Counted from the first letter of the stretch, positions 5,014-59,823 are shown. The stretch: 64,000 nt of DNA from a virus (IMGVR_UViG_3300016665_000824:70297-134296); one strand, 5' to 3'. The notes: a model not told the origin generated them from the sequence alone. Numbers and translations: made by a program.

Positions 5014-5032
5014 AGGTGATTCAGATCGGAAT

Positions 5033-5767
5033 CTATTCTGGGATGTCTATATCCCCAAGCGCTCTTATCTTCTCTCTAAACTCTATAAATGTCCTTACCA
5101 CGCCTATGTAGTCACTAAATCGAGTCTTAAGCTCAGAGACTTCTTTCTGGCTTAGCTGTAGAGACTCAATATAGTTTTGTTCTCGATCCTTGAGGTTCGC
5201 GTTCTCTTCCTTAAGATCCGCAATCTGTCTGCGTAGATCGGCGATCGCTATTAGGATCTGATCAATCTCCTCCTTTGTTATTGCGCTTGGAGGATCTTCA
5301 AACTCCCCATTCTGTAGGGCGATCGCGCCAATCTTCCGAATAGCTTCGCGGTACTGAAGTCTTTCTTTCTGGAGGTCGTAGGCACTTTTCTCGATCTTTG
5401 TATACTCTGCGTCAGTCACGTATGGAGGGGACTCCACTTCGACACACAGAAAGTTCGTGCCAATTCTTGCTAATCTATACCCAATCTCGGACTTAGCTCG
5501 ACGGATATGATTTATCTGGGATTCCAGCTTTGTATAGAACTCGTCGGTCTCAACGTCGGACGGAGAAAAACCTTCGTCTAGCAAGAGCCTGCCAAGATAA
5601 TCAATCTTTTTAGCGAATAGCTTCTTGGTTTCTACTGCTCGTTCGTAGTCTTCTAGCTGCTCAACATAGGTCTGTGCAAGCGTCTGAATACTCTCGTACT
5701 GCGATCGCGGAACGAACCACTTGGAAAGGATGTCGTTAATTAGATTCAAATCAATCCTCCAGCTCAT
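5033..5767 (-). CDS. hypothetical coiled-coil protein (possible scaffold/assembly protein)
   Basis: ORF 5033..5824; likely start at ATG 5767 (MSWRIDLN...); heptad-rich sequence. Confidence 0.4.
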   Translation of the reverse strand: MSWRIDLNLINDILSKWFVPRSQYESIQTLAQTYVEQLEDYERAVETKKLFAKKIDYLGRLLLDEGFSPSDVETDEFYTKLESQINHIRRAKSEIGYRLARIGTNFLCVEVESPPYVTDAEYTKIEKSAYDLQKERLQYREAIRKIGAIALQNGEFEDPPSAITKEEIDQILIAIADLRRQIADLKEENANLKDREQNYIESLQLSQKEVSELKTRFSDYIGVVRTFIEFREKIRALGDIDIPE

Positions 5768-6440
5768 CTGCGTCTGGGGGTGCGGGAGTGCTAACCACAG
5801 TAAGCCAATTAGCTTTTTGCTCAACTAAAGCCGCTTGATAGTCCTGCTCCTCAAGAGTGGAGAGATCGGGGCGCAACTCGGCTAGTTTTTCGTCAGGAAT
5901 GGCAATCAATTTTTCGGCAGTTTTGACTGCGGCGATTTCTTCGGGAGTTACTTGCTGCCCAGTGAGATCTTCTAGGGTTGGCGCTTCAGGAGTTTTTTCG
6001 CCGAAGCCTTTTTTCTTGCGAGATTTCTTTTCTGGTTGAGGCTCCTCCACTGCGGCTTCCGTATTTTGAGGTAACACCGCATTGATAAATTCAATCAGTT
6101 CAGTTGCACCCAAACTTGCTGGCAAGGTGGGGATTAGCTTTCTGAGATTATTCTCCAATGCTACGCGGGGATTCTTGGCGGGGTCTGGCTCGATTTCAGG
6201 GTCTAGGTTTAGAGAGAACAAGAAAGCCGAGTCGCGATCGCTAGATTGTGTTTCCACCATTAGATCCTGAAAGGCTTTTACGGGATCTTTGGTTGTTAGC
6301 GCCGACTCATAGGCTTTGGCGGACGAAATTTTTAAAAGCGACCAAATAATCTTGGTGGCAGGATCGATCGCGGCATCGCCAGAAACGAAGGGGTACTCAA
6401 CGCCGCGCACGGTGATAGTGTTACTCAACGAATTCTCCAT
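5751..6440 (-). CDS. hypothetical acidic protein
   Basis: 229-aa ORF, Glu/Pro-rich central region; tightly packed in structural block. Confidence 0.4.
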   Translation of the reverse strand: MENSLSNTITVRGVEYPFVSGDAAIDPATKIIWSLLKISSAKAYESALTTKDPVKAFQDLMVETQSSDRDSAFLFSLNLDPEIEPDPAKNPRVALENNLRKLIPTLPASLGATELIEFINAVLPQNTEAAVEEPQPEKKSRKKKGFGEKTPEAPTLEDLTGQQVTPEEIAAVKTAEKLIAIPDEKLAELRPDLSTLEEQDYQAALVEQKANWLTVVSTPAPPDADELED

Positions 6441-6951
6441 AAATATTTAGGTTTGACTGATATCGAAAAATCACGCCGAAGGGGATATCGACTATCCATG
6501 CAGGTGACTGCTCATACTGCGTCCTTATGGGCTGTCTTGGTACAGGGGTAATATCCCGTCCGTCCCATTCGACTCCTAAGAAGTTTTTGCTGGGGATTTT
6601 AAATCTGTTGTACTTCGCGATCGCGTGAGAGATGAACGCCAGTTCGACAGGAACTTTTTGTTTGTATTCAGTCTCGTTGGCATATCCTTTGATCGCCAAA
6701 ACCTCAATCCTTTGCATTCGATAAGCCCTGTTTGGGCTGTCGGGACGCTCAGAATCTTTGCCGTGGTCGCCAATTGAAGCTATGCCGACGGTCTCGCCTT
6801 CGATCACGTTGTAGTAATCCCCACTAGTGTCTAAGTGCAGCTCACTGATAATGTGTGCGACAAAGTGATTTATCGACTCGGTTATAAGCCCTTTGTAATA
6901 GTCTTCAAAGTTCATCGTGGCGATCGCAAAATATTGCCTTGATATTACCAC
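6421..6951 (-). CDS. hypothetical protein
   Basis: 176-aa ORF, overlaps downstream gene by 20 nt. Confidence 0.4.
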   Translation of the reverse strand: MVISRQYFAIATMNFEDYYKGLITESINHFVAHIISELHLDTSGDYYNVIEGETVGIASIGDHGKDSERPDSPNRAYRMQRIEVLAIKGYANETEYKQKVPVELAFISHAIAKYNRFKIPSKNFLGVEWDGRDITPVPRQPIRTQYEQSPAWIVDIPFGVIFRYQSNLNIYGEFVE

Positions 6952-7077
6952 AGAAATGCGTTATGGTTGTTATGCGATCGCCAAGTCTCAATTGGCAGGA
7001 AGAATGTCACTGGCGACAAACATAAGGATACGCGGCGAGATACTGGCGATCATCTTAAAAGAAATCGTAAAAACCAC

Positions 7078-7509
7078 ATGAAAGAACTTGAAAACAATAA
7101 AGATCTTGAATCTTTTCTAAAAGAGCTGCGAGAGCAGGCGGTTGCGGGTGACTTTGGTGTGGATGCTCTGCTTAACGAAGTAAGGAAAGCCGCAAAAAAG
7201 TGTGAAGAATTTAGGAATACAGAGTCTAGTCAGCCCAAGGATATTGAGTTTATTCAAGCTCTAATGCGATTTGCCGCTAACCAGCCCAGTCTTGCATTTC
7301 TAACCCCTTATTTTGGCAAACAAAAATCAGAAGAAGAAGTTCAGGCTATTTTTAAATCGTTGCTGCTTAGGGAGTTAGGAGAACTCAAACTCTCTGCTAA
7401 TCACCACAAAGCCAGTATTCAGTTCTATCAATATGAACTAAAAAGGAACGAGAGATATCGAGCAGACATAGAAGAAGCGATCTCCAGAAATTATCCAAAC
7501 CTAAAATAA
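7078..7509 (+). CDS. hypothetical protein
   Basis: ORF 6967..7509 begins at TTG; first ATG at 7078 (MKELENN...). Confidence 0.35.
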   Translation: MKELENNKDLESFLKELREQAVAGDFGVDALLNEVRKAAKKCEEFRNTESSQPKDIEFIQALMRFAANQPSLAFLTPYFGKQKSEEEVQAIFKSLLLRELGELKLSANHHKASIQFYQYELKRNERYRADIEEAISRNYPNLK

Positions 7510-11299: not shown

Positions 11300-11755
11300 A
11301 TGTCTAACTCTAGTTCTGCCACAAAATTGGCGATCGCAAGATTAAAAGGATCTGACCTGCCTATTTTTGTTCCAGTTTCAGTCTCTGAGAAAGTCGCAAC
11401 CCTAGTCAGGGAGTGTATTTTACAGTCCGACAGTTTAAAGATATTAAAAGTTACTACTACAGTTTACAACGAGCTTACTAAGCATTTAAAGCAGTACGAA
11501 AAGCCAAAATATACCATTCCTCAGTATCTTTTGATGCTCCTATATACGGTTTCTACTACTTCAGAATTGATCGAAAAACACAACAAGGGTTTAATTTCAG
11601 ATGACGAGTTTATTAACTGTATCAAAAACAACAAAAACGCAAACGGGACTAAAACCTCCCGCAAAATGGGTCGGAAGAAAGCAAGCGTTGATGCCAGCGA
11701 TCGCGCAGTACTTCCCCGCGAGGTTCACAAAAGAACCAGTTCCAAGGTTTCTTGA
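11300..11755 (+). CDS. hypothetical protein (3' end uncertain; overlaps MTase gene in another frame)
   Basis: 151-aa ORF; last ~40 codons look non-coding and overlap the Dam-like ORF. Confidence 0.3.
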   Translation: MSNSSSATKLAIARLKGSDLPIFVPVSVSEKVATLVRECILQSDSLKILKVTTTVYNELTKHLKQYEKPKYTIPQYLLMLLYTVSTTSELIEKHNKGLISDDEFINCIKNNKNANGTKTSRKMGRKKASVDASDRAVLPREVHKRTSSKVS

Positions 11756-12518
11756 TTTCAAAAAGGGTGTCGGCAATTTCCACGACCCTTTCGTTGGTAC
11801 TGGTAGTGCATTTTTGTATTTTGCGGATGGATTTCGAGGCGATCGCAAGATTTTTATTAGTGACAGTAATCCTGAACTCATTAATATTTGGCTGTGCATT
11901 CAAGCCGATCCTCTAAGGCTTTTAAGATCCTTGCTTGAATACAAGCGCCCTGTATTTAACAGCGCCGAATCGTACTATCACGAAAGGCAGATCTTCAATC
12001 AGCAGTTTAAAGGTTCTTACGACTACGAGCTAGCAGCAAGAATGATCTACTTAATTCAGGCTGGTTTCAATAGCCTATGGAGGGTTAACAGCGACGGTGA
12101 AATGAACACGCCTTTTGGCTCTCAGAAGCAAATTGCCCTTCTTACCGAGAATGATTTGACCGCGCTTTCGGTTCTCCTTCAAAAAGCGACAATCAAACAT
12201 CAGCCTTTTGAAGAGTCGCTAAAAGATGTACAACCCAATGATGTCGTCTATCTCGACCCGCCATACATTGAAGTCAAAAAGAATTCCTTCAATAAATACA
12301 CCACAAAAGGTTTTAGCAGAGAGCAGCAGATACTCCTCCGCCAAGAAGCCGATCGCCTGCACGATCTAGGCGCTTATGTATACGCCAGTAATAGCGATAC
12401 CCCCTTGAGTCGCGAAATTTGGTCGGGCTGGAAAATCGCAGAACTGACGAGATCGGGCTGCATGAACTCAGATGCAACCAAGCGTCAACGGGTTGGAGAG
12501 TTGTTATTTTATAAATAA
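11601..12518 (+). CDS. N6-adenine DNA methyltransferase, Dam family (D12 class)
   Basis: KWVGRK (cf. KWAGGK), FVGTGSAF SAM-binding motif, and DPPY catalytic motif (VVYLDPPYIE) in the translation. Confidence 0.8.
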   Translation: MTSLLTVSKTTKTQTGLKPPAKWVGRKQALMPAIAQYFPARFTKEPVPRFLDFKKGVGNFHDPFVGTGSAFLYFADGFRGDRKIFISDSNPELINIWLCIQADPLRLLRSLLEYKRPVFNSAESYYHERQIFNQQFKGSYDYELAARMIYLIQAGFNSLWRVNSDGEMNTPFGSQKQIALLTENDLTALSVLLQKATIKHQPFEESLKDVQPNDVVYLDPPYIEVKKNSFNKYTTKGFSREQQILLRQEADRLHDLGAYVYASNSDTPLSREIWSGWKIAELTRSGCMNSDATKRQRVGELLFYK

Positions 12519-14578: not shown

Positions 14579-16336
14579 CTAGCTAGCGATCGCCATTAAT
14601 TTAGTCAACCCAGCCTTCCGCAACATCTCTTGCTGGAGCTTGGTTTGAAAATATGGCTTATCCTCAGCACTTGCTACTCGATACAGTTCCAGCCAGTATT
14701 TCTCCCGCTTCTCGCAGTGTATATGCTGAATCTTGGCGATCGCACGGTCAACCACTGCCTTGACATCGCCAGCGATCGCCTCTTGCATTGCGTAAGGTAT
14801 GTCCGAAAAGTCATCGTTCAGGAATTTATCCCACAGCGCACAGTGATCGTCATGGGCAAATTCGATCTCTTGAAGCAGGATATACCCCCGCAAATCGGGA
14901 TGATGGACAAAGGCTTTTAGTATCTGCATTTCGGCTAGTTGCAGAGCAGTATAACTGGGTTTTGCGGCAACCTGTGGTGATTCAGATCGGAATACCGATC
15001 GCGCAAGTCGATGTAAATCCTCCTCAATGCGTACGGCAAGGCGAGCATTTCCCTGAGCTAACTTCTGAGCACACTTATGGGTATAGTGGCTACGTCGGGC
15101 ATCCATCGGCAATGGGGCGAGTATTTGCGCGATCGCTTGATTAGCTCGCTGGAAGTCGGCAGAATTGTTAAGGTCTTTGCCCTTAATCTCAAGGTCAATT
15201 AACCAGTCAAGGTATAGCGGCGCTTCGCGGAGCAGCGATAAGTACGCTTCAGAACCATAAGTGGTTAGGTACTCGTCGGCATCTTTTTTGCCCTCAATGG
15301 TTAGTATCCGTAGATTTACCGTACCATCCAGAACTAGCTCTAGGACTTGACTTACGGCTTTTTTAGTTGCCGTAACACCTGCTTTGTCCGAGTCGAAGTT
15401 GCAAACTATACGCTTCGACTCAGTATGGCGTAAAACCTGTTTAATTTGAGCGGCGCTAAGCGCTGTGCCCATTGAGCCGACTGCATGGGTAATTCCATTT
15501 TGGTGCAGGGAAATCACGTCGAGGTGTCCTTCGACAATTACCGCCTCGTCGTTCTTGGCGATCGCCTCACAAGCTTTGTCTAGTCCAAACAGTAGTTCAC
15601 CCTTTTTGAACAACTCGGTTTCGGGCGAGTTGATATACTTTGCGCCGTCGTCCTCACCGCTTAGCGATCGCGCAGAAAATCCAACCACGCGACCACGGAT
15701 ATCGGCGATCGGGATAATCAGGCGATCGCGAAATCGGTCATAGTAGCCTTCGTTTTCTTTGCGAGGTATCGCCAACCCCAATTCTTCAAGAGTTTGAACG
15801 GGGATATTTAACTCGGCAAGGTTACTCCACCCCGCAGGCGCGTAACCGAGCTTGAACTTATTGCAGGTATCTCTGGTGATTTTGCGTTTTTCTAAGTAGG
15901 CAAGGGCTTTGGTGTTGAGCTGTTGCTGGTAGTAACGAGTGACTTTAGCTATTTGATCGAAGAGGTATTCCCTGTGCGATCGCTCCTTAACGATTTGCTC
16001 GGCATGTTCTGGCTCTTCGGTTCTTACTTCAACCCCGTAACGACCAGCCAAATCTAGTACGGCATCTGGGAACGATTTATGACCAATCTCCATCATAAAC
16101 TTGATCGCACCACCCGACGCACCGCAGTTATGGCAGTAATACATGCCTTTGCTGGGGTCTACCGAGAGGGCGCTGGGATTCGTGCCGTTGTGAAATGGGC
16201 AAGCGCCACGAAATGAGTGACCCGACCGCTTAAGTACGACGTTTTCGCTAACGACATCAACGATGTCGGCTTTGTCGTTTACTGCGGCGATCGTATCAGC
16301 ATGGATTCGGAATGATTTAGGTTTGGCGGATTGCAT
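14579..16336 (-). CDS. dnaG: DNA primase DnaG
   Basis: CHC2 zinc finger (CPFHNGTNPSALSV...YYCHNCGASGGAIKF) and TOPRIM-like EGHLDVISL segment. Confidence 0.85.
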   Translation of the reverse strand: MQSAKPKSFRIHADTIAAVNDKADIVDVVSENVVLKRSGHSFRGACPFHNGTNPSALSVDPSKGMYYCHNCGASGGAIKFMMEIGHKSFPDAVLDLAGRYGVEVRTEEPEHAEQIVKERSHREYLFDQIAKVTRYYQQQLNTKALAYLEKRKITRDTCNKFKLGYAPAGWSNLAELNIPVQTLEELGLAIPRKENEGYYDRFRDRLIIPIADIRGRVVGFSARSLSGEDDGAKYINSPETELFKKGELLFGLDKACEAIAKNDEAVIVEGHLDVISLHQNGITHAVGSMGTALSAAQIKQVLRHTESKRIVCNFDSDKAGVTATKKAVSQVLELVLDGTVNLRILTIEGKKDADEYLTTYGSEAYLSLLREAPLYLDWLIDLEIKGKDLNNSADFQRANQAIAQILAPLPMDARRSHYTHKCAQKLAQGNARLAVRIEEDLHRLARSVFRSESPQVAAKPSYTALQLAEMQILKAFVHHPDLRGYILLQEIEFAHDDHCALWDKFLNDDFSDIPYAMQEAIAGDVKAVVDRAIAKIQHIHCEKREKYWLELYRVASAEDKPYFQTKLQQEMLRKAGLTKLMAIAS

Positions 16337-19701: not shown

Positions 19702-20924
19702 TGAAAGGATACGAACAGACCTGCCCCAAAGTCGAAGCGATCGGGCAAATCAACTTTCACGGCGACGGTGTTTTTACGCCAAACAACTGGTATCACAACA
19801 TCTGTCACAAGAACGGTAAACCCTATCTCGAAGCAATAATTCTTCTTGCGGATATTGTTTCTTGGTATTTGCCCATCTACGAAAGAGATGAAGTCACTGG
19901 CAAGACGATTGGGGTCAGGAAAAAATTCAAGGCAGACAAACTCCAGCGAAACTACGACTCTTTTGCGGACCATTATGGCATGACCAAAGATCAAGCTAGA
20001 AATGCTCTGAAACACCTAGAAAGAGACGGACTCATAGACCTAGAGCTAAGAACAGTCGAAACTTCAGTACAAAAGCTTGGAAATGTTTTGTTTATCGGTG
20101 TTTACCCAGAAAAAATCAAGGATTACACTTTCACCCTCTCGCCAAAAGAACAGACCCCTGTGCTCACAGAAACCGATAGGGGTATCGACAGAAAAGCAGA
20201 GGGGTCTGCACAGAAACAGACAGCACTCCCCACAGAAGCCCAGACAAATACAGATCAATCTACAGATCTTTCTACTGATCAATCTACTAAAAATATAAGA
20301 GCGGATGAATTTTTTGCGATCGCTCCTTCGTCGCAAATCCAAGAAAATTCTTTTCCCGCACAAACAGAAAATCCGAGAATTGAAGAAACCCCAACACCCC
20401 CTACCCCCTCTTCCCCTTCCGCGCCCGAAAATATCGGCAAGGCGATCGCGCCCTCGGTAGCCACCTCAAAACAGGCAGAAGCGTATATGCAGTTTGAGCA
20501 GCGCTTTAGCCAACCAAAACCTCAAAACCGCCACGTACCCAAACTGCTTGTGGAGGCTGGCTATGCAGAATGGCACAACGGCAAACACCCGAACGACTGG
20601 CGCAAATCCTTGATAGATGTTTGCATCCAAAGGAAGAAAAAGCGTGGCGATGAAGCGACTGTAGGTGCAGCCACCGACTTTATTTTTAACGTAATGAAAG
20701 ACTGTATTTCCCTCGGATTCTGGGGTAAGTTCCAAGAGCTTGTTGATCAAGCCCTAAAGCTCGAAGCCGTCGAAGCGATCGCCGCACAACAAAAACAAAT
20801 TGAAGATCAGCGATTCGAGCAACAGCCAGTTGAATCTAACGCCCCCACAATGACTCTTGAACTTCGCAAGCAATATGCTGCCGAATTGAGACGTAAAGCC
20901 AACAACATGAGACTAATTGCTTAA
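19701..20924 (+). CDS. candidate replication initiation / helicase-loader protein
   Basis: 408 aa immediately upstream of and coupled to dnaB (TGATG overlap with previous stop); winged-helix-like N-terminus, low-complexity linker; function inferred from position only. Confidence 0.3.
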   Translation: MKGYEQTCPKVEAIGQINFHGDGVFTPNNWYHNICHKNGKPYLEAIILLADIVSWYLPIYERDEVTGKTIGVRKKFKADKLQRNYDSFADHYGMTKDQARNALKHLERDGLIDLELRTVETSVQKLGNVLFIGVYPEKIKDYTFTLSPKEQTPVLTETDRGIDRKAEGSAQKQTALPTEAQTNTDQSTDLSTDQSTKNIRADEFFAIAPSSQIQENSFPAQTENPRIEETPTPPTPSSPSAPENIGKAIAPSVATSKQAEAYMQFEQRFSQPKPQNRHVPKLLVEAGYAEWHNGKHPNDWRKSLIDVCIQRKKKRGDEATVGAATDFIFNVMKDCISLGFWGKFQELVDQALKLEAVEAIAAQQKQIEDQRFEQQPVESNAPTMTLELRKQYAAELRRKANNMRLIA

Positions 20925-20928
20925 AACT

Positions 20929-22656
20929 ATGAAAGACCCACAACAGATCCAAAGACTCAACGCTCAGATCGAACCTAGCAACGTTGAAGCCGAACAAACG
21001 ATCATTGCGGGGGTTTTTGAAGGTGGAAGCCTTCTTAGCCTAGTCGCCGACGCAATCACACCTGAGATGTTTTTTTCGAGCCTTCTAGGGGCATTTTTTA
21101 GGGCATCGTTGTTTTTGAGAAATAGCGATCGCGACATAAACACCCTAACCTTAGCCGCCGCGCTACAGGAGATGGGTTTTAAAGACTTTTACGGCTTTGA
21201 CAGTATCTCGGCGCTAGTCCACAACACCTATGCCGACATTATGGGCAGCACGTATATTCAAAGTCCAGCCCACTACGAATCTGCCGCCGCCCTAATCCGT
21301 GAAGCCTCCGTAAGGCGAGACCTGATTAAAGCTGGCAGAGCAGCGATCGCCGCAGCCTACGATCAAGAAATATCTGTGCTTGATGCCTGTACTAAAGCTC
21401 AAGATTTGATTGGGGATGCTATGACATCATCTCAGGTTCGTAGTACCGTGTTTGAGGTTGGTACAACCTACACAAACATGTGTGCGGAACTTCTCGATCC
21501 TCAAATTGGAGAGTTCAATCCCGTAATCCCCAGTGGTTATGCGGCGTGGGATGAAATGCTTGAAGGTGGTTTTCGGGGTGCTGAACTCGCGGTTATTGGT
21601 GGAGACTCGGCGATCGGTAAGTCGATGCTCTTGTTTGGTGCGGCATGGAATATGGCGAAATTCCTTTCGGATCAAGGTAGGGTGGGTTATATCGGCTCGA
21701 TGGAAATGTCCACTCGTAGCGTTGTGCATCGCTGGATTGCTTCCGAAGCGCAAGTGGCTTTATCTCGGATGCGTCGCCGAGAATTAAGCGAAGCCGATTG
21801 CGAAAGGATTATGAAGGCATCTAGCGCTGGCGAAATGTTGAATAACCTTGTAATTGACGAGGACAACAAGGCTACTATCCCCCAAATGCTTAACCGAGCC
21901 AAAGAATTTGCACGTAAACATGCTAGAAAATATGGCGGTAGCGGCGAGCTTGGCTTTATGGTTATCGACAACATCAAGATCGCCGAAAAAGGTGGTGACG
22001 ATTTCAACTTGGTTAACCGATACCTCAAAGATCTCAAGGGGATTGCAAAGGATTACAACATCCCGATAATCTCTTTGTCTCAGCTAACTAGAGAATCCCT
22101 GTTAAAAAGTTCTGACAAACGCCCTACTGTTGAGGGGTTGTATGGCGGCAAAGCGATTGAAGAAAATGCTGACGACATTTTTGGCTTGTATCGAGGTGTT
22201 AAGTACGACGATTTCTCTATCCCCACAAACCGAGCTGAGATTATTCGTCTGAAAGGTCGAAACTCAGACCAGTCAAAGGAAAATAGAACGATTTTGCTTG
22301 GCTTCAATGGCGCTCTTTCTACTTTTTACGACCTTGGCGAACCAAAACTAGCCCAAAAATCGGAGCAAAAACAAGCGATCGCCACACCAGTCACCGAAGA
22401 CATTAACTACTTCGGCGATCTCGAAGATGGATGTCAAGTTGTTCTGGATATTTCCTACTCAACACCTGAAGAAAAATCGGAGATCAGCGATCGTATCAAC
22501 GCAAAGCAGCTACCAAAGCCCAATGAAGTCTGTGGAGTAACCCGCCTAAGCGTTTGCGAAACTCCTGAAGTAGGTAAATTTGGGGTTGCCCACCTAATAC
22601 TGCCCGACAACTCCGAAATGAAGGTTGCAGTAGACGAATTGCGCCGAGTCAGTTAG
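20929..22656 (+). CDS. dnaB: replicative DNA helicase DnaB
   Basis: DnaB-like N-terminal domain (NVEAEQTIIAGVF), Walker A GGDSAIGKS, RecA-like core; start set at ATG 20929 (ORF track TTG 20917). Confidence 0.75.
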   Translation: MKDPQQIQRLNAQIEPSNVEAEQTIIAGVFEGGSLLSLVADAITPEMFFSSLLGAFFRASLFLRNSDRDINTLTLAAALQEMGFKDFYGFDSISALVHNTYADIMGSTYIQSPAHYESAAALIREASVRRDLIKAGRAAIAAAYDQEISVLDACTKAQDLIGDAMTSSQVRSTVFEVGTTYTNMCAELLDPQIGEFNPVIPSGYAAWDEMLEGGFRGAELAVIGGDSAIGKSMLLFGAAWNMAKFLSDQGRVGYIGSMEMSTRSVVHRWIASEAQVALSRMRRRELSEADCERIMKASSAGEMLNNLVIDEDNKATIPQMLNRAKEFARKHARKYGGSGELGFMVIDNIKIAEKGGDDFNLVNRYLKDLKGIAKDYNIPIISLSQLTRESLLKSSDKRPTVEGLYGGKAIEENADDIFGLYRGVKYDDFSIPTNRAEIIRLKGRNSDQSKENRTILLGFNGALSTFYDLGEPKLAQKSEQKQAIATPVTEDINYFGDLEDGCQVVLDISYSTPEEKSEISDRINAKQLPKPNEVCGVTRLSVCETPEVGKFGVAHLILPDNSEMKVAVDELRRVS

Positions 22657-25805: not shown

Positions 25806-25824
25806 GAGGAGGTAAACCCCAACC

Positions 25825-26040: not shown

Positions 26041-26059
26041 ACTCGATCGCCACTTTTTC

Positions 26060-26088
26060 AGATCTGAATTACCACAAAAGCACAATGA
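26060..26088. repeat. 29-bp direct repeat R2 copy a (agatctgaattaccacaaaagcacaatga)
   Basis: Identical copy at 26801-26829; both include a start codon. Confidence 0.7.
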
Positions 26089-26318: not shown

Positions 26319-26320
26319 AG

Positions 26321-26349
26321 AAGATTGTTGAAGATGATGAATATTTTTA
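26321..26349. repeat. 29-bp direct repeat R1 copy b
   Basis: Identical to 25776-25804. Confidence 0.7.
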
Positions 26350-26359
26350 AGAGGTTAAT

Positions 26360-26851
26360 ATGGCAAGTGTCAAGCATTATTTAAGTTGCCCAGCTAAGCC
26401 CTACGAAGAAGGGATACCCTTATACTCCGATCGCCTGAGAGAATGGTTTCACGATATCGGTGATGTCTGGGAATACTACGAAGATCAGATCGGAGAAGAT
26501 GAGGATATTGATCTTGAATGGGCGGAAGCCAAGCAATCGCCTCAAGGTATTTGTGAAATGGCTCGTCTTTTCTTAGGTAGACCAGTTTATTTGCCGTGGG
26601 CTGAGATTCCTGAATTTGATCTACCTGATGGTGTTGACGATATCTCGGAAATACTGCCGCCAAGCCACGAGATCAACATAAAACTTGCCGAGTTAAACAA
26701 GCTTATCGAAGAAACAAAGCTGGTTGTTTGCTACGAGGAGTCTAGCTACCGCCCAGATCCAGAAACCTTGGACTTTAAGTGCGCGATCGTCGCTTTTTTT
26801 AGATCTGAATTACCACAAAAGCACAATGAAAGCTCGACAGTTCGAGATTAA
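26360..26851 (+). CDS. hypothetical acidic protein
   Basis: 163-aa ORF; 3' end runs through R2 copy b. Confidence 0.35.
   Translation: MASVKHYLSCPAKPYEEGIPLYSDRLREWFHDIGDVWEYYEDQIGEDEDIDLEWAEAKQSPQGICEMARLFLGRPVYLPWAEIPEFDLPDGVDDISEILPPSHEINIKLAELNKLIEETKLVVCYEESSYRPDPETLDFKCAIVAFFRSELPQKHNESSTVRD
26801..26829. repeat. 29-bp direct repeat R2 copy b
   Basis: Identical to 26060-26088. Confidence 0.7.
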
Positions 26852-42287: not shown

Positions 42288-42826
42288 GAGAGTGGATTTT
42301 GCCTTTTTAGGAGCGCCAAGTAATTAGTTTTGGAAGAACAATTACTAACAAACTTTTATGCGATCGCACAACATGGCTTTTTCCTGATTCCTACATAGGC
42401 TTTTACCCTGTAATGCCATGAATTTATAGGTTCAGCGATCGCATGGTAGACAGATTACTCTGTCCGCACTTTCTCTGGACAAGAAAGTAGTGGGATAATC
42501 AACCGCCAGCACCATATCTGGCATTCGTCACCACGAGGGCTTAAGGTGTGTGTTGCCACAGTTGATTGTTTGCTAGCGTACTGGAAAGGCGATCACTATT
42601 GCCTCATGACCACCTAAAACTCGCTCATATATTAAGGTTAGGCTTCGAGCAAGGCTTAATCTCAGGTCTAGCACCCCCTGTTCGACACCTTACTGCCGCA
42701 GGGACGGTGCGATCGCCTACCAACTAGGGAAATTTATTCAATAACCACACGGAGAGACCCCGACGTTCATTGATAGTGCGATCGCAACATAATTCTAACA
42801 CAGTCTTGTGGTGGTTCAGATCGGAA

Positions 42827-43309
42827 TTAGTTGGCTGCTCGACCACCACATCTAGTACCATCTGCGGCAGTCTGCCATGAGTATTGACAGTTTCCAGAGT
42901 ATCCAGAAGTGTTTGAGGGTGGATTGTCTAGCAAATAAACAGGCTTTTGCTGACAAGTTAAAGAAGCACTATCAAAGGTTGAATCCGTCGGGCAGGGGGC
43001 AGTACAAAGAGTCCCATCCCCACGTCTGTCGATAGTTCCTTTTGGGCAAGCACTACCAACCAGAAACCCTTGACTTGGAGAAGTTTTTTGTGATGAGGTT
43101 GGGATGCTTCTTGATTCGCTAGTCGTATTGATAGAAGTCCCATTGTTGCCCGTACATAGATGGTCCAGATTTACCAGAACCCCTCGGCTGTTGACCATAT
43201 AACACAAGGGCAAGTTGCTGGGTAGCCCCTCAAAAGGATCTTTAGCGATCGCTAGTTGAGGCAAGGCAAAAATAGTAACAAGAGACAACAAGACACCGAT
43301 CTTTTTCAA
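42827..43309 (-). CDS. secreted Cys-rich protein
   Basis: N-terminal signal-peptide-like segment (MKKIGVLLSLVTIFALPQLAIA), many Cys; a 42-nt inverted repeat (gtggtggt / accaccac) spans its stop codon. Confidence 0.45.
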   Translation of the reverse strand: MKKIGVLLSLVTIFALPQLAIAKDPFEGLPSNLPLCYMVNSRGVLVNLDHLCTGNNGTSINTTSESRSIPTSSQKTSPSQGFLVGSACPKGTIDRRGDGTLCTAPCPTDSTFDSASLTCQQKPVYLLDNPPSNTSGYSGNCQYSWQTAADGTRCGGRAAN

Positions 43310-43375: not shown

Positions 43376-44035
43376 CTAGCCTCCGTAATAGTCAGCACAT
43401 AAATACTCAAGCGATCGCCCTATTTTAACCGAGTAATTCTCACCCTCGATACTAGCTTCCTGCATCACCTTTTCTAAAGCCGCTCTCACGATCTCCACAG
43501 CGTCCGTAGGAACACTAAAGATCATTCGAGTGAATTCATCACTGGCTTCGGGAGGAGCTTTCTCCTTGGCGGCTTCGAGCATCTTGGCGAGACTTTCCTT
43601 TGTGTGAGGTGTGGGGAGATAAGCGCGATCGCCTAATTTCTTTTCAACCCTTTTGAGGGAAACACTTAGCTTAACTGGATCTTCTTCGCCGTGAGCCTTG
43701 GATGCGGAGGTGTATAACTCGTATTCTTCATCCTGTAAGCCCGTAATGACATTGCAATAGTAGTATTCCAGCCCCTCTAAGTATCTATGTTCGCCATTTA
43801 CAATCTCGTACTCACCCTCAATATGCGGATGGGGGCGAACAACAAGCGGCTCAATTTGGGTAAACATCTTTAAGCTCTCCCCCAAAGCCTTTTGGTGGTG
43901 AGGCTGCAAAACGTTTGAGTTCCAAGAGTTCGGATGTATCTTTGAGGTCTCAATCTTTACATTCCACTCTTTCTGGATTCGTTGCGCGATCGGTAGCGAA
44001 TAATCAATCTTCTTCGTCATCTTCATCCTCTTCAA
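43376..44035 (-). CDS. ParB-like nuclease-domain protein
   Basis: N-terminal segment (IHPNSW ... QIEPLVVRP ... YEIVNGEHRY) resembles the ParB N-terminal domain. Confidence 0.4.
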   Translation of the reverse strand: MKRMKMTKKIDYSLPIAQRIQKEWNVKIETSKIHPNSWNSNVLQPHHQKALGESLKMFTQIEPLVVRPHPHIEGEYEIVNGEHRYLEGLEYYYCNVITGLQDEEYELYTSASKAHGEEDPVKLSVSLKRVEKKLGDRAYLPTPHTKESLAKMLEAAKEKAPPEASDEFTRMIFSVPTDAVEIVRAALEKVMQEASIEGENYSVKIGRSLEYLCADYYGG

Positions 44036-45185
44036 ATTTCTTGGGCATAATTACCGATGTCAGGAATGATTCCTGCTCTACTCCGTCGCAAGGGCTAACC
44101 ATTACTAGCGGTCGAGTTCCCTCGTATACCTCCAGCTTAATGTGTTTTGATTTTGTGGTATCCAAAATATGCTGCAAGTATTTTATGTTGAACCGAGCAG
44201 CAAATCCTGACACGCCAACATCGCATGGCAGTGATTCTTCCACCCTGCCAACACCCGCAACTTCAGCAACAAGTATCAACTCATCACCCTTGATAGTGAT
44301 GTCAACCAAGTAGCTAGTAATCTCACCCTCACACAACGAAGCAACGGTCTTCAAGCTGGTAATCAGCTCTTTGCGATCGCACTTTACCGACCCAGACATC
44401 TCTTTGAGCCGTACGTTAACGAGACTCGATCGTACTGGTGGAAATGGTTGAGCAATTAGTGGTGAGATGATGGTTAGCGCGTGGCTATAAAACCAAATAT
44501 GGTTACTGGCTAAACGCACTTCAGTCTCTGCTTGGGTGATGTGCAGAACCTCTTTGAGCGATCGCGCAGGTATTGTCGCATTAATCAGCTTTTCACTCAA
44601 TTCGGGGTGGACAAATCTGATACAAGATCCTCGACAGCCATCGGTTGCTGTGAAGGATAGGAATCTCGTCGGGTCATCTTCACCATCAATGATTTCGTCG
44701 TACTCCGCTAGGTTCACACCCGTAAGTGCAGGCTTAGTTTCGTCGTTAGATACGAGCTTTAAGGTAGCCACAATGCCGTCCCGCAGTATATCTGTGGCGA
44801 TCGCAAAGGTGTCAGCATCAGTAATCTTGGGGGTGCTTGGGTATGAGTCGGCGCTGATAGTTGGTAGTGAGATTTTACTCTTACCACACTTAATAGTGGC
44901 AATACCTTCGGATACCTTGATTAAAACCTCTTCACCGTTGAGGGACTTTACCGCGTCGGAGAATCGCTTGGCATTGAGCGCGATCGCGCCCTCTTCTTTG
45001 ATACTATCGGAATCCTCTCTGCGGATTAGCCAAAGCTTTAGGTCGGTAGCTGTGATGGTGAAGAGATCGTTCTTCGCTTCGAGTCGAAAGTTTGTTAAGA
45101 TTTCCTGCGGTGGAGACTTAGAAACAGCTTCCTTTACTGCGTCCACCATCGATTTCAACGTTTTGAGAGGGAGTGTTAGTTGCAT
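44004..45185 (-). CDS. dnaN: DNA polymerase III beta sliding clamp
   Basis: 393 aa; N-terminus (LKTLKSMVDAV ... FTITATDLKLWL) matches DnaN pattern and length. Confidence 0.75.
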   Translation of the reverse strand: MQLTLPLKTLKSMVDAVKEAVSKSPPQEILTNFRLEAKNDLFTITATDLKLWLIRREDSDSIKEEGAIALNAKRFSDAVKSLNGEEVLIKVSEGIATIKCGKSKISLPTISADSYPSTPKITDADTFAIATDILRDGIVATLKLVSNDETKPALTGVNLAEYDEIIDGEDDPTRFLSFTATDGCRGSCIRFVHPELSEKLINATIPARSLKEVLHITQAETEVRLASNHIWFYSHALTIISPLIAQPFPPVRSSLVNVRLKEMSGSVKCDRKELITSLKTVASLCEGEITSYLVDITIKGDELILVAEVAGVGRVEESLPCDVGVSGFAARFNIKYLQHILDTTKSKHIKLEVYEGTRPLVMVSPCDGVEQESFLTSVIMPKKFEEDEDDEED

Positions 45186-52188: not shown

Positions 52189-52241
52189 ACACAAGCAACC
52201 CGCCAAGCCTCTCTACGATGCTGAAACTGGCGGGTTGCTTG
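52189..52241. terminator. stem-loop between convergent genes
   Basis: cacaagcaacccgcc ... ggcgggttgcttgtg, ~14-bp stem with ~23-nt loop, followed by T-rich tgttgtg. Confidence 0.45.
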
Positions 52242-54522: not shown

Positions 54523-54942
54523 TTACAGAAGCTCCTTAGAGAAGAAAGTTGTTTCTTTAGCCACGTCGATATCGACAGGATGAAGACCAACCGCCAACGA
54601 CTCTAAAGCCTCACTCGCGTTACTAGGATCTACTACCCACGTTTTTGCGTCAACTTCGGGCACTTGAGACCAGTATCTTTGCAACCACTTTAACCAGCCG
54701 TTGCGAGAAAACGGTTTAGGCGGATCGATTGCCGCCAATTTTTCAACAGCTTCTTTTACAAGGATCGCATCCTCTTCTAGGCTTGCTGAGTCAATCCAGA
54801 AACCGCATTTTTTGCAGTAAACAATATAGTTGCCACTGCGCTTTGAGATCTGAATCCCCAAAGAAATGGTCTTGCGAGCAAATCCTTGACTAACTTTTCC
54901 GTAGTTAGGATCGATCGCTTTCCGTCTTTTAGCTTCACCCAT
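54523..54942 (-). CDS. hypothetical protein
   Basis: 139-aa ORF with CKKCG pattern. Confidence 0.4.
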   Translation of the reverse strand: MGEAKRRKAIDPNYGKVSQGFARKTISLGIQISKRSGNYIVYCKKCGFWIDSASLEEDAILVKEAVEKLAAIDPPKPFSRNGWLKWLQRYWSQVPEVDAKTWVVDPSNASEALESLAVGLHPVDIDVAKETTFFSKELL

Positions 54943-57912: not shown

Positions 57913-57985
57913 AAAATTTTGCTACAGTGAATACATAAAATTGCCACAAATCTGCGATAATTCGACATCGTTTCAAAATAAACCC

Positions 57986-58195: not shown

Positions 58196-58440
58196 CTCCA
58201 CGCCAGCTTGTAGCCACAACCCTTGGCGATCGCTCCAGCTTGGTCAAGAGTATCAAAGCCACAAACATTGCGAATGTTCAAATCTGTGTGACTGATCAAG
58301 CCGACTAAATAGTAGCGATCGTCTGGTCCTAGTTCGTAGTTCAAAGTCCCTTGCATAGCCTCCTCCTCGCGAATATCACGCGCTTTTGTGCTAAATTTAT
58401 GGCAATACTAACACAATAGGCGGAATACTGCCACAAAAAA

Positions 58441-58692
58441 ATGCCAAAAGGGATTAAGAAAATTAAAAGAGGGGTGGGGCAGCCTCGGAAGTACAGAAAG
58501 TCGAAGTGTCCACACTGCAAGTCGCACTGGCATACCAGTAATGGAGGCGGGCGCGAAAAGTGTAATGACTGCGGCAAGACATGGGCTAAGAGGAAGGGTG
58601 ATGACGAGCTATTGGCAGCACCACCCGCATCCGTCACCACAAAGAAAAAGGAAGCCCCCGTCAGTATCGCAGATCAAAGACCTGCTGCTTGA
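58441..58692 (+). CDS. C4 zinc-ribbon protein
   Basis: CPHCKSHW ... CNDCGKTW; CTGCCACAAAAAA directly before the ATG. Confidence 0.4.
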   Translation: MPKGIKKIKRGVGQPRKYRKSKCPHCKSHWHTSNGGGREKCNDCGKTWAKRKGDDELLAAPPASVTTKKKEAPVSIADQRPAA

Positions 58693-58757
58693 AAACCACG
58701 ATATTGTCGCTGAGGCGATCACACAAATAACTATTGAAGAAGGTCAAGTAAAAGGCT

Positions 58758-59033
58758 ATGTCAAGGAAGAAGGCAGGTGGTACAAGTTCACCATCTATAA
58801 GTGTTGATCCACTCCGCGCTGAGTTGGACGAGATTTTTAGCGAGTTTCCGAGCGGGGCGGCGATCGCCTATGGATTCCTAAAAACAGAAAGCTCTAGCCC
58901 GTTTATCCAGATTGGTGATGGGGTGAATGTCTGGAGGGTGCGAAGAAATGCCGTCGATTTCTATATTAATGGTGTTAGCGATCGCGTAGAACTCAAATGG
59001 ACGAAGAACAGCAACCAGAACATCGAACCATAA
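58758..59033 (+). CDS. hypothetical protein
   Basis: 91-aa ORF; overlaps next ORF. Confidence 0.3.
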   Translation: MSRKKAGGTSSPSISVDPLRAELDEIFSEFPSGAAIAYGFLKTESSSPFIQIGDGVNVWRVRRNAVDFYINGVSDRVELKWTKNSNQNIEP

Positions 59034-59575
59034 CGCAGATGTGGAATACCCTTCTTGAACAAGACCCAAGGTTCAAGATGGTAGTGGACTTAGCAACCCC
59101 ACGAGGTAATCGCAAAAATGTGATGCCCCTCACCCGCGAGAATGTTCGGATTGCCTTCGCCGCATTTAATGACGGTATTGCTGAGCAGTTAACCGACTTG
59201 GCGATCGCCTGTTTTAACCGTTCCCACTCTCCTCGATTCGTCACCACCGATGAAGGTGATGAATTTATTGAAACTAGCGAAGAAGAAATCTATTATCAAT
59301 GGGAGCCTGAAGCGGCTTTGAGGATCTGCAACCAACGCCTTGATGGGTTTCTAATTGAGATCAGCGATCGTGGCACTATTACCAAATTTAAGTACGAGCG
59401 ACCACCTTTCCTGTATCCTCACGGCTGGGCCTATCAACCAACCATGCCCGAAGTTCCCGACGATCCTGAATGCTGCACGTTATTTGATCGAAGAAGCCAT
59501 GCTCGTCGCCGTCGAAGATTTGGGAATGTCGGCGACAAGTATGACCTGCATGGTAAAGCGTGGAAGAAGGGTTAA
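58997..59575 (+). CDS. hypothetical protein
   Basis: 192-aa ORF. Confidence 0.35.
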   Translation: MDEEQQPEHRTITQMWNTLLEQDPRFKMVVDLATPRGNRKNVMPLTRENVRIAFAAFNDGIAEQLTDLAIACFNRSHSPRFVTTDEGDEFIETSEEEIYYQWEPEAALRICNQRLDGFLIEISDRGTITKFKYERPPFLYPHGWAYQPTMPEVPDDPECCTLFDRRSHARRRRRFGNVGDKYDLHGKAWKKG

Positions 59576-59823
59576 GGCAGTATCCTGTCCAGCAGGTAGA
59601 TAATTAAGTGCATAGCCTTAACATTCCTGTTCGCGCAGTATATCTTCAGGCGAGTATGCAGTGAAGCAGGTAGATCAACCGTGATCCGCACAGTCCGCTC
59701 CTTCTCCCCTTCCACGGGCAACCCATCCAAAATATTTCCCGCAGTATTGTTTGTGTTCAGATCGGAATTAGCCTTGATAAAATTCTGCTCAATTGTTTCG
59801 GTAAGAGGTATACGCTTAGACAC
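59572..59823 (-). CDS. ParG-like ribbon-helix-helix protein (candidate centromere-binding partner of ParA)
   Basis: C-terminal RITVDLPASLHTRLKIYCANRNVKAMHLIIYLLDRIL is RHH-like; immediately downstream of and overlapping parA. Confidence 0.45.
   Translation of the reverse strand: MSKRIPLTETIEQNFIKANSDLNTNNTAGNILDGLPVEGEKERTVRITVDLPASLHTRLKIYCANRNVKAMHLIIYLLDRILP

What the first reader, a model, noticed from the sequence alone, without database searches (positions are those of the whole stretch)
5025..59773. Strand-biased 13-24 nt motif TTCAGATCGGAAT present four times
The core TTCAGATCGGAAT occurs at 5028-5040 (intergenic, upstream of the putative portal gene), 14982-14994 (inside dnaG), 42814-42826 (3' end of the secreted-protein gene) and 59755-59767 (inside the ParG-like ORF). 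All four are in the same orientation and share extended flanks (TGTGGTGATTCAGATCGGAAT in copies 1 and 2; TTCAGATCGGAATTAG in copies 3 and 4). Four identical 13-mers by chance in 64 kb is very unlikely. Position does not respect gene boundaries, so this is not a simple promoter; it could be a recognition site for a DNA translocase, nuclease, packaging or recombination system.
Basis: seen in the sequence. Interest (0 to 1): 0.55.

Follow-up and report, generated by a model that had tools for sequence, protein, structure and literature searches.

The report
Dispersed palindromic protein-binding site in cyanophage
The repeated 13-mer is real, but it is the visible part of a 12-bp palindrome (TTCNGATCNGAA) spaced about every 10-17 kb along an uncultured freshwater cyanophage genome; it is most likely the docking site of a phage DNA-binding protein, and the reported strand bias does not hold up.

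Summary
TTCAGATCGGAAT occurs four times on the + strand (5020, 14981, 42815, 59756), against 0 expected. It is the only dispersed 13-mer outside the HIP1 repeat (GCGATCGC) with four or more copies.

The interpretation needs correcting. The functional unit is a dyad-symmetric core, TTC-N-GATC-N-GAA. The only two positions that give it an orientation are the ones that vary between relatives at homologous sites. A fifth exact copy 9.5 kb left of the window is inverted, so the strand bias is not a real property.

Strict sites are strongly enriched: 5 in the window against 0.14 expected, and 7 in 84 kb. They favour non-coding gaps (4 of 7 in 13% non-coding DNA) and are unusually evenly spaced (10-17 kb, P about 0.002). 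They are conserved at the same places across phage lineages. The 18-mer form is absent from every cyanobacterial representative genome.

One copy (42815) occupies the -35 region of a promoter (dyad, 11-12 nt, TGTGTTAGAAT) conserved in five lineages upstream of the terminase operon.

Best reading: a dispersed operator or anchor site for a phage-encoded dimeric DNA-binding protein, comparable to KorB O_B sites, N15 centromere repeats or P1 C1 operators. The binder is unidentified; a ParB/Spo0J-like gene sits directly behind one site. Moderately interesting.

The parts
5019..5032 (.). Site S1: ATTCAGATCGGAAT (core TTCAGATCGGAA, 5020-5031). On the sense (-) strand it reads TAG|ATTCCGATCTGAAT, directly after the stop codon of ORF 5033-5824 and directly before a terminator hairpin, about 110 nt upstream of the portal start codon.
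   Evidence: It is conserved in four lineages whose upstream C-termini cannot be aligned. The first variable base changes C to A in L336.
4983..5014 (-). Intrinsic terminator hairpin immediately 3' of S1 on the sense strand.
   Evidence: Relative L015 has different stem bases, but the stem is still formed.
14980..14993 (.). Site S2: ATTCAGATCGGAAT inside dnaG, read as V-F-R-S-E-S-P at codons 448-454.
   Evidence: The 13-mer is unchanged in relatives with 84% and 74% nucleotide identity, although synonymous changes occur just outside it.
26057..26068 (.). Site V1: TTCAGATCTGAA, a perfect palindrome. It lies in the 44-nt gap between two small + strand genes, ending 16 nt before an ATG.
26798..26809 (.). 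Site V2: TTTAGATCTGAA (1 mismatch). It is a paralogue of V1 and shares about 31 nt with it. The two lie in tandemly duplicated small-gene cassettes.
   Evidence: Relative L319 has a single copy, TTCAGATCTGAA.
42815..42826 (.). Site S3: TTCAGATCGGAA. The sense (-) strand reads TAATTCCGATCTGAA. It starts right at the stop codon of ORF 42827-43309 and occupies about -41 to -30 of the promoter listed next.
   Evidence: The dyad is kept in five lineages while the upstream gene is replaced.
42792..42802 (-). Extended -10 element TGTGTTAGAAT, 11-12 nt downstream of S3. It points into a 650-nt non-coding stretch and then the terminase operon (putative small subunit 40684-41271; large subunit 39087-40715).
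   Evidence: The block is invariant in the five-lineage alignment A2. The large-subunit call rests on PHROG phrog_2, 8e-28. In L351 a tRNA-Gly lies just downstream of the same promoter.
59756..59767 (.). Site S4: TTCAGATCGGAA inside the 83-aa RHH gene, read as N-S-D-L-N, about 55 nt after its start and just downstream of parA.
   Evidence: It is conserved in L131/L244 at 83% nucleotide identity.
54843..54854 (.). Doubtful 1-mismatch variant TTGAGATCTGAA inside ORF 54523-54942. One-mismatch sites occur at the background rate, so this may be chance.
43376..44035 (-). 219-aa protein with a ParB N-terminal-like domain, one gene upstream of S3. It is a candidate binder or partner; this is inference only.
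   Evidence: Pfam ParB_N 1.1e-4, below the family cut-off. PHROG 'ParB-like partition protein' 1.4e-10. The AlphaFold model was too poor to use (pLDDT 55.6).
11601..12518 (+). D12-class (Dam-type) N6-adenine DNA methyltransferase. It could methylate the central GATC of every site; this is inference.
   Evidence: Pfam MethyltransfD12, 6.9e-43.
59572..60448 (-). parA (59816-60448) plus the RHH gene (59572-59823). This partition-like pair suggests plasmid-like carriage of the phage.

Best explanation
The repeat is a 12-bp dyad-symmetric DNA site, TTC-N-GATC-N-GAA (often ATTC...GAAT). It is recognised on double-stranded DNA by a homodimeric, phage-encoded DNA-binding protein.

The sites form a dispersed operator or anchor network along a roughly 140-kb freshwater cyanosiphovirus genome, about one site per 10-17 kb. 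At the best-conserved copy (42815) the dimer would sit on the -35 region of the promoter that precedes the terminase operon, and so control it. Other copies lie in the short gaps at the edges of transcription units: before the portal gene, before a minor-head-protein operon, and before a ParB-like gene. A few lie inside genes.

What is shown and what is inferred:
- Shown: the symmetry, enrichment, placement, spacing, conservation and promoter association of the sites.
- Inferred: that a protein dimer binds them, and that the effect is on transcription. The direction of that effect, repression or activation, is unknown.
- Speculative: that the binder is the 657-aa ParB/Spo0J-like HTH protein encoded immediately downstream of site S0.
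For: 1. Enrichment. The window has 5 strict sites against 0.14 expected (0 of 100 shuffles). The 83.7-kb extended region has 7, against about 0.17 expected from its roughly 680 GATC sites. One-mismatch sites are at the background rate, so the family is sharp rather than fuzzy.

2. Dyad symmetry with free asymmetric positions. At homologous sites the arms and the GATC stay fixed, while the two N positions vary:
- S0: C,T; A,G; A,T
- S0b: A,T; C,T
- S1: C,T; A,T
- S3: C,T; G,G; A,T; G,T; A,G

3. Conservation of position. S0, S0b, S1 and S2 are kept in a relative of only 73-76% nucleotide identity. S3 is kept down to a lineage whose neighbouring protein is 46% identical.

4. Promoter association. 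In five lineages the arrangement dyad, 11-12 nt, TGTGTTAGAAT is the only conserved block between unrelated upstream genes and a variable downstream region. S0b overlaps the -35 of a promoter-like TTTAGA-16-GATAAT.

5. Placement. Four of 7 strict sites fall in the 13% of DNA that is non-coding (P = 0.007; 5 of 8 with S0b, P = 0.0015).

6. Lineage specificity. The 18-mer form is absent from every cyanobacterial representative genome; the 9 hits are in unrelated organisms, about the number expected by chance.

7. Different reading frames in the two genic window copies and negligible RNA hairpin energy argue against protein-coding or RNA-structure explanations.

8. Candidate binders exist. A ParB/Spo0J-like N-terminal domain plus first HTH helix starts 15 nt after S0 (PDB 1vz0, E = 6e-4, boxes II and III aligned). 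A second ParB_N-like protein lies one gene from S3.
Against: - No binding protein has been identified, and there are no experimental data.
- Three of 7 strict sites lie inside genes, and S1 sits between a stop codon and a terminator. Neither is a classical operator position.
- Only S3, and weakly S0b, can be tied to a promoter.
- Most sites are identical even at the 'free' positions within one genome. That is more uniform than typical operator sets and could instead point to recent spread or a stricter reader.
- An asymmetric 3' flank, (C)CACCAC(A/G)A, lies on the sense strand at several sites. A symmetric dimer does not explain it.
- Very even spacing fits a structural or segregation role at least as well as gene-by-gene regulation.
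Confidence: 0.45

Rival explanations
1. Centromere-like or clamp-loading sites. The dyads would be parS/O_B/N15-IR-type sites for a ParB-family protein that loads there and spreads or slides. The purpose would be segregation, compaction or long-range silencing of a plasmid-like phage genome, not control of adjacent promoters.
For: - A 12-14-bp palindrome with invariant arms is the format of parS, Noc and KorB sites, and of the four separate N15 IR sites. The N15 IRs have identical arms and variable central bases in the oligonucleotide sequences given in PMC7205306. The KorB site is given in PMC11790492.
- The sites are evenly tiled: gaps of 10-17 kb, CV 0.22, P = 0.0015. Further gaps of 9.6-9.9 kb are seen in relatives.
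- The sites occur regardless of coding context.
- The phage carries parA plus two ParB_N-like genes, one directly behind S0.
- ParB-fold fusions to DNA methyltransferases are reported to be common in phages (PMC12704722).
Against: - ParA is paired with an RHH protein, not with either ParB-like gene, and 97-nt repeats upstream of parA are a more conventional centromere candidate.
- The ParB-like assignments are weak: no Pfam hit for the 657-aa protein and an unusable structure model for the 219-aa protein.
- The intergenic bias and the fixed promoter register at S3 are not required by this model.
- The spacing statistic is post hoc and rests on 7-9 sites.
Confidence: 0.25
2. Recombination or mosaic-junction signal. 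The motif would be a hotspot or short homology block at which gene cassettes or gene ends are exchanged between related phages, in the manner of the PeSL cassettes of T4-type phages (recalled knowledge).
For: - At S1, four lineages have four unalignable C-terminal segments that all end in a stop codon abutting the dyad.
- At S3, different genes precede the dyad in different lineages.
- V1 and V2 flank a duplicated cassette that one relative lacks.
Against: - The other end of each replaced segment has no motif copy.
- S0, S2 and S4 have well-conserved flanks on both sides.
- The same pattern arises if the dyad is simply the first element of a conserved downstream regulatory block.
- The dyad symmetry and free central positions are not explained.
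Confidence: 0.1
3. Site for a sequence-specific nuclease or the packaging machinery, for example localized single-strand nicks as in T5 or phiKMV-type phages (recalled knowledge), or terminase recognition.
For: - A few long, exact, dispersed sites is the format of phage nick sites.
- The best-conserved copy lies upstream of the terminase genes.
- The central GATC together with a phage Dam-type methylase recalls the methylation-controlled P1 pac site (recalled knowledge).
Against: - The sites are symmetric and flip orientation between relatives, which is unlike strand-specific nick sites.
- About ten dispersed single copies is incompatible with a unique pac or cos site.
- Contig ends do not map to any site.
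Confidence: 0.08
4. RNA-level element in 3' UTRs or intercistronic spacers, acting on transcript processing, termination or translation.
For: - In the window lineage, every copy carrying the CACCAC flank has that flank on the sense strand (S0, S1, S2, S3, S4, V1, V2).
- Several copies abut stop codons or precede start codons by 1-16 nt.
Against: - The conserved positions are exactly the palindromic ones.
- In L080 the two asymmetric core bases are swapped (C,T to A,G), which makes the core its own reverse complement while the flanks stay in place.
- The copy at 70124 has the opposite sense orientation.
- The predicted RNA hairpin is 0 to -0.6 kcal/mol in 4 of 5 contexts.
- S3 lies upstream of its transcription start if the conserved -10 is real.
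Confidence: 0.05
5. Artefact or chance, for example Illumina adapter remnants (AGATCGGAAGAGC shares 9 nt with the motif).
For: There is a 9-nt identity to the adapter. The only literature matches to the strings are adapter-containing primers.
Against: - The same sites recur in independent assemblies from ENA, JGI and Logan and with different assemblers.
- They are in frame within conserved proteins.
- The sequence diverges from the adapter after 9 nt.
- No shuffle reproduces the count.
Confidence: 0.01

Closest known systems
KorB O_B operators of plasmid RK2 (ParB-family global regulator)
   Same: A short palindromic site, TTTAGCGGCTAAA (PMC11790492). From recalled knowledge, about a dozen copies are scattered over the replicon, some at promoters and some far from any promoter. 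Bound by a ParB-fold HTH protein that both regulates transcription and serves partition.
   Different: The sequences are unrelated. No KorA-like partner or KorB orthologue was identified here. The ParB-like candidates are remote and one carries a methyltransferase-like tail. The replicon is a 140-kb cyanophage, not a conjugative plasmid.
IR1-IR4 centromere sites of the linear phage-plasmid N15 (SopB sites)
   Same: Single palindromic sites with identical arms and variable central bases (GTGCGACC-NN-GGTCGCAC; PMC7205306). They occur as separate copies in a phage that is also a plasmid.
   Different: N15 uses a type Ia SopA/SopB pair. Here ParA is a short type Ib-like ATPase paired with an RHH protein. 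This phage has more sites, they show an intergenic bias, and one lies inside a promoter.
C1 repressor operators of phage-plasmid P1 (recalled knowledge)
   Same: Many copies of one operator dispersed over a roughly 90-kb phage-plasmid genome, controlling separate operons.
   Different: P1 operators are asymmetric 17-mers. The sites here are symmetric 12-14-mers, and no C1-like gene was identified.
T4 middle-promoter MotA boxes (recalled knowledge)
   Same: At S3 a phage-specific element replaces the -35 hexamer at a fixed 11-12 nt from a host-type -10 element.
   Different: MotA boxes are asymmetric and always promoter-linked. Only one of the sites here shows this register.

Membership tests
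ParB-family binding sites (parS / KorB O_B / Noc NBS / N15 IR) | Short (13-16 bp) palindromic site present in one to many copies on the replicon | tested here: met
   The site is TTCNGATCNGAA or ATTC...GAAT, with 7 strict copies in 84 kb.
ParB-family binding sites (parS / KorB O_B / Noc NBS / N15 IR) | A cognate ParB-fold protein with an HTH DNA-binding domain is encoded on the same element | tested here: inconclusive
   The 657-aa protein aligns to Spo0J (PDB 1vz0) over the GxxR and ENxxR-like boxes and the first HTH helix, E = 6e-4, but it has no Pfam hit. The 219-aa protein matches PHROG 'ParB-like' at 1e-10, but its model is poor.
ParB-family binding sites (parS / KorB O_B / Noc NBS / N15 IR) | The ParB gene is adjacent to its ParA partner | tested here: not met
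   parA (59816-60448) is followed by an RHH gene. The ParB-like genes lie about 16 kb and about 69 kb away.
ParB-family binding sites (parS / KorB O_B / Noc NBS / N15 IR) | Demonstrated specific binding and nucleotide-dependent spreading or sliding | not testable with these tools
   This needs EMSA, ChIP-seq or CTP-binding assays.
   The core is dyad-symmetric. Orientation is 5:1 in 84 kb, with the inverted copy at -9511. The asymmetric bases flip or vary at homologous sites.
Host repeat families (HIP1 variants, REP/MITE-like extragenic palindromes) | Many copies in the host chromosome, with a stable hairpin | tested here: not met
   The 18-mer was found in no cyanobacterial representative genome. 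It contains no GCGATCGC. The hairpin energy is 0 to -0.6 kcal/mol in most contexts.
Sigma-70-type promoter element | Fixed spacing to a -10 hexamer at every copy | tested here: not met
   Only S3 has a conserved extended -10 at 11-12 nt plus TGTGT. S0b overlaps a promoter-like site in another register. No such element is seen at S0, S1, S2, S4 or V1 on inspecting the sequences.
Mobile regulatory cassettes (PeSL-type) or integron attC-like cassette boundaries | A repeat copy at both ends of each exchanged cassette | tested here: not met
   The replaced segments at S1 and S3 have the motif at one end only.
Sequencing-adapter contamination | An adapter match of 12 nt or more, confined to one library or assembly | tested here: not met
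   Only 9 nt are shared. The sites recur in independent ENA, JGI, Logan and IMG/VR assemblies.

The most novel reading that the evidence does not exclude
The dyads are loading sites for a phage-encoded ParB/KorB-like nucleotide-dependent DNA clamp. In this reading the clamp is the 657-aa ParB-HTH protein with a methyltransferase-like tail, encoded right behind site S0. The sites would be tiled every 10-17 kb so that the whole 140-kb cyanophage chromosome is covered. This would be a genome-wide silencing, organising or marking system for plasmid-like (pseudolysogenic) carriage, with the terminase promoter as one direct target.
Probability: 0.15. Interest if true: 0.7.

Novelty: new member of a known kind. 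Interest (0 to 1): 0.4.

Why it matters
Freshwater cyanophages of this size have no described regulatory circuitry. The nearest isolates are Synechococcus phage S-CBS4, Aphanizomenon phage CL131 and Planktothrix phage PaV-LD, which share only about 28-31% portal identity.

A sharply defined, conserved site gives three things:
- a direct experimental handle for finding the master regulator or organiser of this phage lineage (DNA pull-down, DAP-seq);
- a probable control point of the packaging operon;
- a test of whether these phages persist as plasmids, given parA, the ParB-like genes and the evenly tiled sites.

If the ParB-clamp reading were right, it would extend long-range clamp-based regulation from plasmids to a phage. 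If it is an ordinary repressor operator, it is a useful but unsurprising annotation.

Tried and rejected
- Protein-coding motif: rejected. The two genic window copies use different frames.
- tRNA-like or att-site origin: rejected. The window has no tRNA and no cyanobacterial genome carries the 18-mer.
- Known RNA family: none at the sites. The only Rfam hit is abiF RNA at 52199.
- RNA hairpin: energetically negligible.
- Near-identical known phage or plasmid: none by megablast. Only distant portal hits were found.
- Literature search for the motif strings: only Illumina-adapter primers and one unrelated hit.
- IS200/IS605 link: the insertion seen in some relatives has boundaries unrelated to the motif.
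- General promoter hypothesis: -10-like elements at a fixed distance were looked for at all sites and found only at S3.
- Structure-based test of the 219-aa ParB_N-like protein: the AlphaFold model was too poor (pLDDT 55.6) for a fold search.
Relatives had to be picked out by their HIP1 density.
- Single-protein scans of IMG/VR and JGI: few relatives found.
- Resemblances to the 16S rRNA 3' end, boxA, SmtB and Cra operators and E. coli Chi: considered from memory only and dropped as untestable or ill-fitting.

Full report
**Observation**

The 13-mer TTCAGATCGGAAT occurs four times in the window, all on the + strand, at 5020, 14981, 42815 and 59756. None of 100 dinucleotide-preserving shuffles gave a single match.

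A census of all k-mers shows that every other 13-mer with four or more copies either contains the cyanobacterial HIP1 palindrome GCGATCGC or belongs to one coding tandem repeat at 63.1-63.4 kb. HIP1 occurs 186 times in the window. This motif is therefore the only dispersed non-HIP1 repeat of that length.

The shared flanks are slightly different from the description: copies 1 and 2 share GGTGATTCAGATCGGAAT, copies 2 and 3 share TGTGGTG, and copies 3 and 4 share ...GGAATTAG.

**What the replicon is**

The window is the reverse complement of about positions 50.5-114.5 kb of a 134,398-bp metagenomic contig, ENA ERZ27292652 k141_20893. Genes identified:

| Gene | Coordinates | Evidence |
|---|---|---|
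| Portal | 3257-4912 (-) | |
| DnaG primase | 14579-16336 (-) | |
| DnaB helicase | 20917-22656 (+) | |
| Beta clamp | 44004-45185 (-) | |
| Dam-type methyltransferase | 11601-12518 (+) | |
| ParA plus small RHH protein | 59572-60448 (-) | |
| Terminase large subunit | 39087-40715 (-) | PHROG phrog_2, 8e-28, |

Related contigs reach 139-141 kb. The nearest isolates are the cyanosiphoviruses S-CBS4, CL131 and PaV-LD, at only about 28-31% portal identity. Nothing near-identical is in the phage or plasmid collections. This is an uncultured, HIP1-rich freshwater cyanophage lineage with plasmid-partition-like genes. A distant portal relative is annotated in a Pseudanabaena genome.

**The real motif**

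I extended the window by 9.7 kb on the left and 10 kb on the right from the same contig. This gave a fifth exact 13-mer at window coordinate about -9500, in the opposite orientation, and a sixth core copy at 70124.

Inspection shows the motif is a near-palindrome, ATTC-N-GATC-N-GAAT. Searching for TTCNGATCNGAA gives these counts:

| Region or class | Observed | Expected |
|---|---|---|
| Window, strict sites | 5 | 0.14 (0 of 100 shuffles reach 5) |
| 83.7-kb extension, strict sites | 7 | about 0.17, from about 680 GATC sites |
| 83.7-kb extension, one mismatch | 4 | about 3 |

The strict sites are at -9511, 5020, 14981, 26057, 42815, 59756 and 70124. Because one-mismatch variants are at the background rate, the family is sharply defined. 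Two of the one-mismatch sites (-1340 and 26798) are nevertheless real, because relatives carry a strict site at the same position or at that of its paralogue.

**Comparative evidence**

Relatives were recovered from IMG/VR, JGI, ENA and Logan.

- A lineage only 73-76% identical in DNA (IMG/VR 3300046328_001165) has sites at the same four places examined: S0, S0b, S1 and S2.
- S4 is kept at 83% identity.
- S3 is kept in five lineages, down to one whose neighbouring ParB_N-like protein is 46% identical.
- Another site about 9.6-9.8 kb left of S0 is shared by two clades.
- Across these comparisons the arms (TTC/GAA) and the central GATC stay fixed, while the two N positions take C,T; A,G; A,T; G,G; and G,T at one and the same locus. 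In L080 the change at S0 converts the site into its own reverse complement while the flanks stay in place.
- The only positions that give the motif an orientation are therefore unconstrained. That removes the basis for a strand-specific signal. Four of four co-oriented copies has P = 0.125 in any case.
- Loci from two lineages with 45-50% portal identity show no site, including upstream of the portal gene.
- The 18-mer ATTCCGATCTGAATCACC occurs in no cyanobacterial representative genome. The 9 hits are in unrelated organisms, about the number expected by chance. The element is specific to this phage lineage and is not a host repeat.

**Placement**

- Four of the 7 strict sites lie in the 13% of the sequence that is non-coding (P = 0.007). 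With S0b the figure is 5 of 8 (P = 0.0015).
- S0 fills the 28-nt spacer between a stop codon and the start of a 657-aa gene.
- S0b lies 1 nt before the start of a minor-head-protein gene in a divergent intergenic region. It overlaps the -35 of a promoter-like TTTAGA-16-GATAAT on the other strand.
- S1 lies between a stop codon and an intrinsic terminator, 110 nt upstream of the portal gene.
- V1 sits in a 44-nt spacer.
- S2, S4 and the copy at 70124 are inside genes. S2 and S4 are read in different frames.
- The spacing is strikingly even. Gaps between strict sites are 14.5, 10.0, 11.1, 16.8, 16.9 and 10.4 kb (CV 0.22, P = 0.0015 against random placement). With S0b included, P = 0.005. This test is post hoc and rests on few sites. 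Gaps of 9.3-9.9 kb and 12.7-17.1 kb recur in relatives.

**The promoter at S3**

The gene upstream of S3 differs between lineages: a secreted 160-aa protein in the window and unrelated genes elsewhere. Homology resumes exactly at the dyad.

A five-lineage alignment shows two conserved blocks, TTYNGATCNGAA and TGTGTTA(G/A)(A/T)AT, separated by 11-12 nt. There is no conservation upstream of the dyad. The second block is a textbook extended -10 element. The dyad centre then falls at about -35, and there is no canonical -35 hexamer.

The promoter points into a non-coding stretch and then the terminase genes. In the most distant relative that stretch holds a tRNA-Gly. This is the strongest functional clue: a protein bound to the dyad would control this promoter.

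**Mechanism**

Dyad symmetry with unconstrained asymmetric positions is the signature of recognition of duplex DNA by a homodimer. Sharp specificity, a few exact sites per genome, intergenic bias and one copy in a promoter point the same way.

I therefore read the family as a dispersed operator or anchor network for a phage-encoded protein (confidence 0.45). The closest formal parallels are the KorB O_B sites of RK2 (PMC11790492), the four separate IR centromere sites of phage-plasmid N15, which also have invariant arms and variable central bases (PMC7205306), and the P1 C1 operators (recalled knowledge).

The binder is unknown. The 657-aa protein that starts 15 nt after S0 aligns to Spo0J (PDB 1vz0) across the GxxR and ENxxR-like boxes and the first HTH helix (E = 6e-4). 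It has a methyltransferase-like tail with a DPFxxSG motif, seen by eye. ParB-fold fusions to methyltransferases are reported to be common in phages (PMC12704722). A 219-aa ParB_N-like protein lies one gene from S3. These are leads, not tests: Pfam finds nothing in the 657-aa protein, and the structure model of the 219-aa protein was unusable. ParA is paired with an RHH protein, and 97-nt repeats upstream of parA are a more conventional centromere. Membership in the ParABS family is therefore not claimed.

**Rivals**

- A centromere or clamp-loading role (0.25) explains the even tiling and the indifference to coding context better than gene-by-gene regulation does. It is the most interesting reading.
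- A recombination-junction role (0.10) is suggested by S1 and S3, where variable upstream sequence ends in a stop codon abutting the dyad in every lineage. However, the other end of each replaced segment has no motif, and three other sites have conserved flanks on both sides.
- A nuclease or packaging role (0.08) cannot be excluded without virion DNA.
- An RNA-level role (0.05) is suggested by a sense-strand flank, (C)CACCAC(A/G)A, at several sites. It is contradicted by the symmetry of the constraint, by the swap of the two asymmetric core bases in L080, by the opposite sense orientation at 70124, and by hairpin energies near zero.
- Adapter contamination is excluded. Only 9 nt are shared with the Illumina adapter, and the sites recur in independent assemblies and in frame in conserved genes.

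**Unexplained**

- The stop codon (TAA or TAG) touching the dyad at S0, S1 and S3 in all lineages.
- The near-identity of the 'free' positions within one genome.
- The asymmetric flank.
- The regular spacing.

**Verdict**

The strand-bias interpretation is wrong. The element is a lineage-specific palindromic protein-binding site of a known general kind in an uncharacterised cyanophage group. Interest is moderate, and would be higher if the tiled ParB-clamp reading proved true.

Noticed in passing
window 52199-52235 (+): Rfam abiF RNA (RF03085) match at 46.9 bits against a gathering score of 37. It is the only Rfam hit in the window and suggests an abortive-infection-type or toxin-antitoxin-like RNA on the phage.
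   Followed up: no
whole window: The HIP1 palindrome GCGATCGC occurs 186 times in 64 kb (about 1 per 344 bp) and CGATCG 249 times, while GGCC occurs only 10 times. The phage genome carries the oligonucleotide signature of a HIP1-rich cyanobacterial host and looks depleted in GGCC sites.
   Followed up: partly
window 61219-61478: Three direct repeats with a 97-nt period lie in the 1.1-kb non-coding region upstream of parA. They are a candidate centromere or operator of the ParA/RHH pair.
   Followed up: no
window 63149-63377: Tandem 12- to 57-nt repeats (TTGAAGCACCCGTTGA...) lie inside ORF 62878-63405. They are a coding repeat (VEAPVE-type peptide), not iterons.
   Followed up: partly
window 25776-26870: Tandemly duplicated small-gene cassettes are bounded by two different repeats of about 30 nt: GAAGATTGTTGAAGATGATGAATATTTTTA at about 25776 and 26320, and the V1/V2 repeat at 26057 and 26798. 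Relative L319 lacks one cassette.
   Followed up: partly
L328, L330 and L331, about 2425-4100 (relatives; homologous to window about 10.3-11.2 kb): An IS200/IS605 element (Y1 TnpA plus TnpB/OrfB) replaces about 1 kb that is present in sister contigs L329, L332 and L333.
   Followed up: partly
L347 2647-2967; L349 3887-4135: Relatives encode proteins with an Acb2/Tad1-hairpin domain and a Tad2-like domain, which are anti-CBASS and anti-Thoeris sponge families. They lie next to the capsid genes.
   Followed up: no
window 39087-40715 (-): The terminase large subunit is recognisable only with PHROGs (phrog_2, 8e-28). Pfam gave no hit. The 195-aa ORF 40684-41271 that overlaps its start is probably the small subunit.
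   Followed up: partly
L351 1805-1875: A tRNA-Gly(TCC) lies about 55 nt downstream of the S3-type promoter in the most distant relative. The window has no tRNA gene.
   Followed up: partly
all motif copies: The motif contains AGATCGGAA, the first 9 nt of the Illumina adapter AGATCGGAAGAGC. Aggressive adapter trimming could clip reads at these sites and lower local coverage in metagenome assemblies.
   Followed up: no
L336 14610-15752; L347 17873-18901: Relatives carry a PAS-EAL (cyclic-di-GMP phosphodiesterase-like) gene among the structural genes.
   Followed up: no
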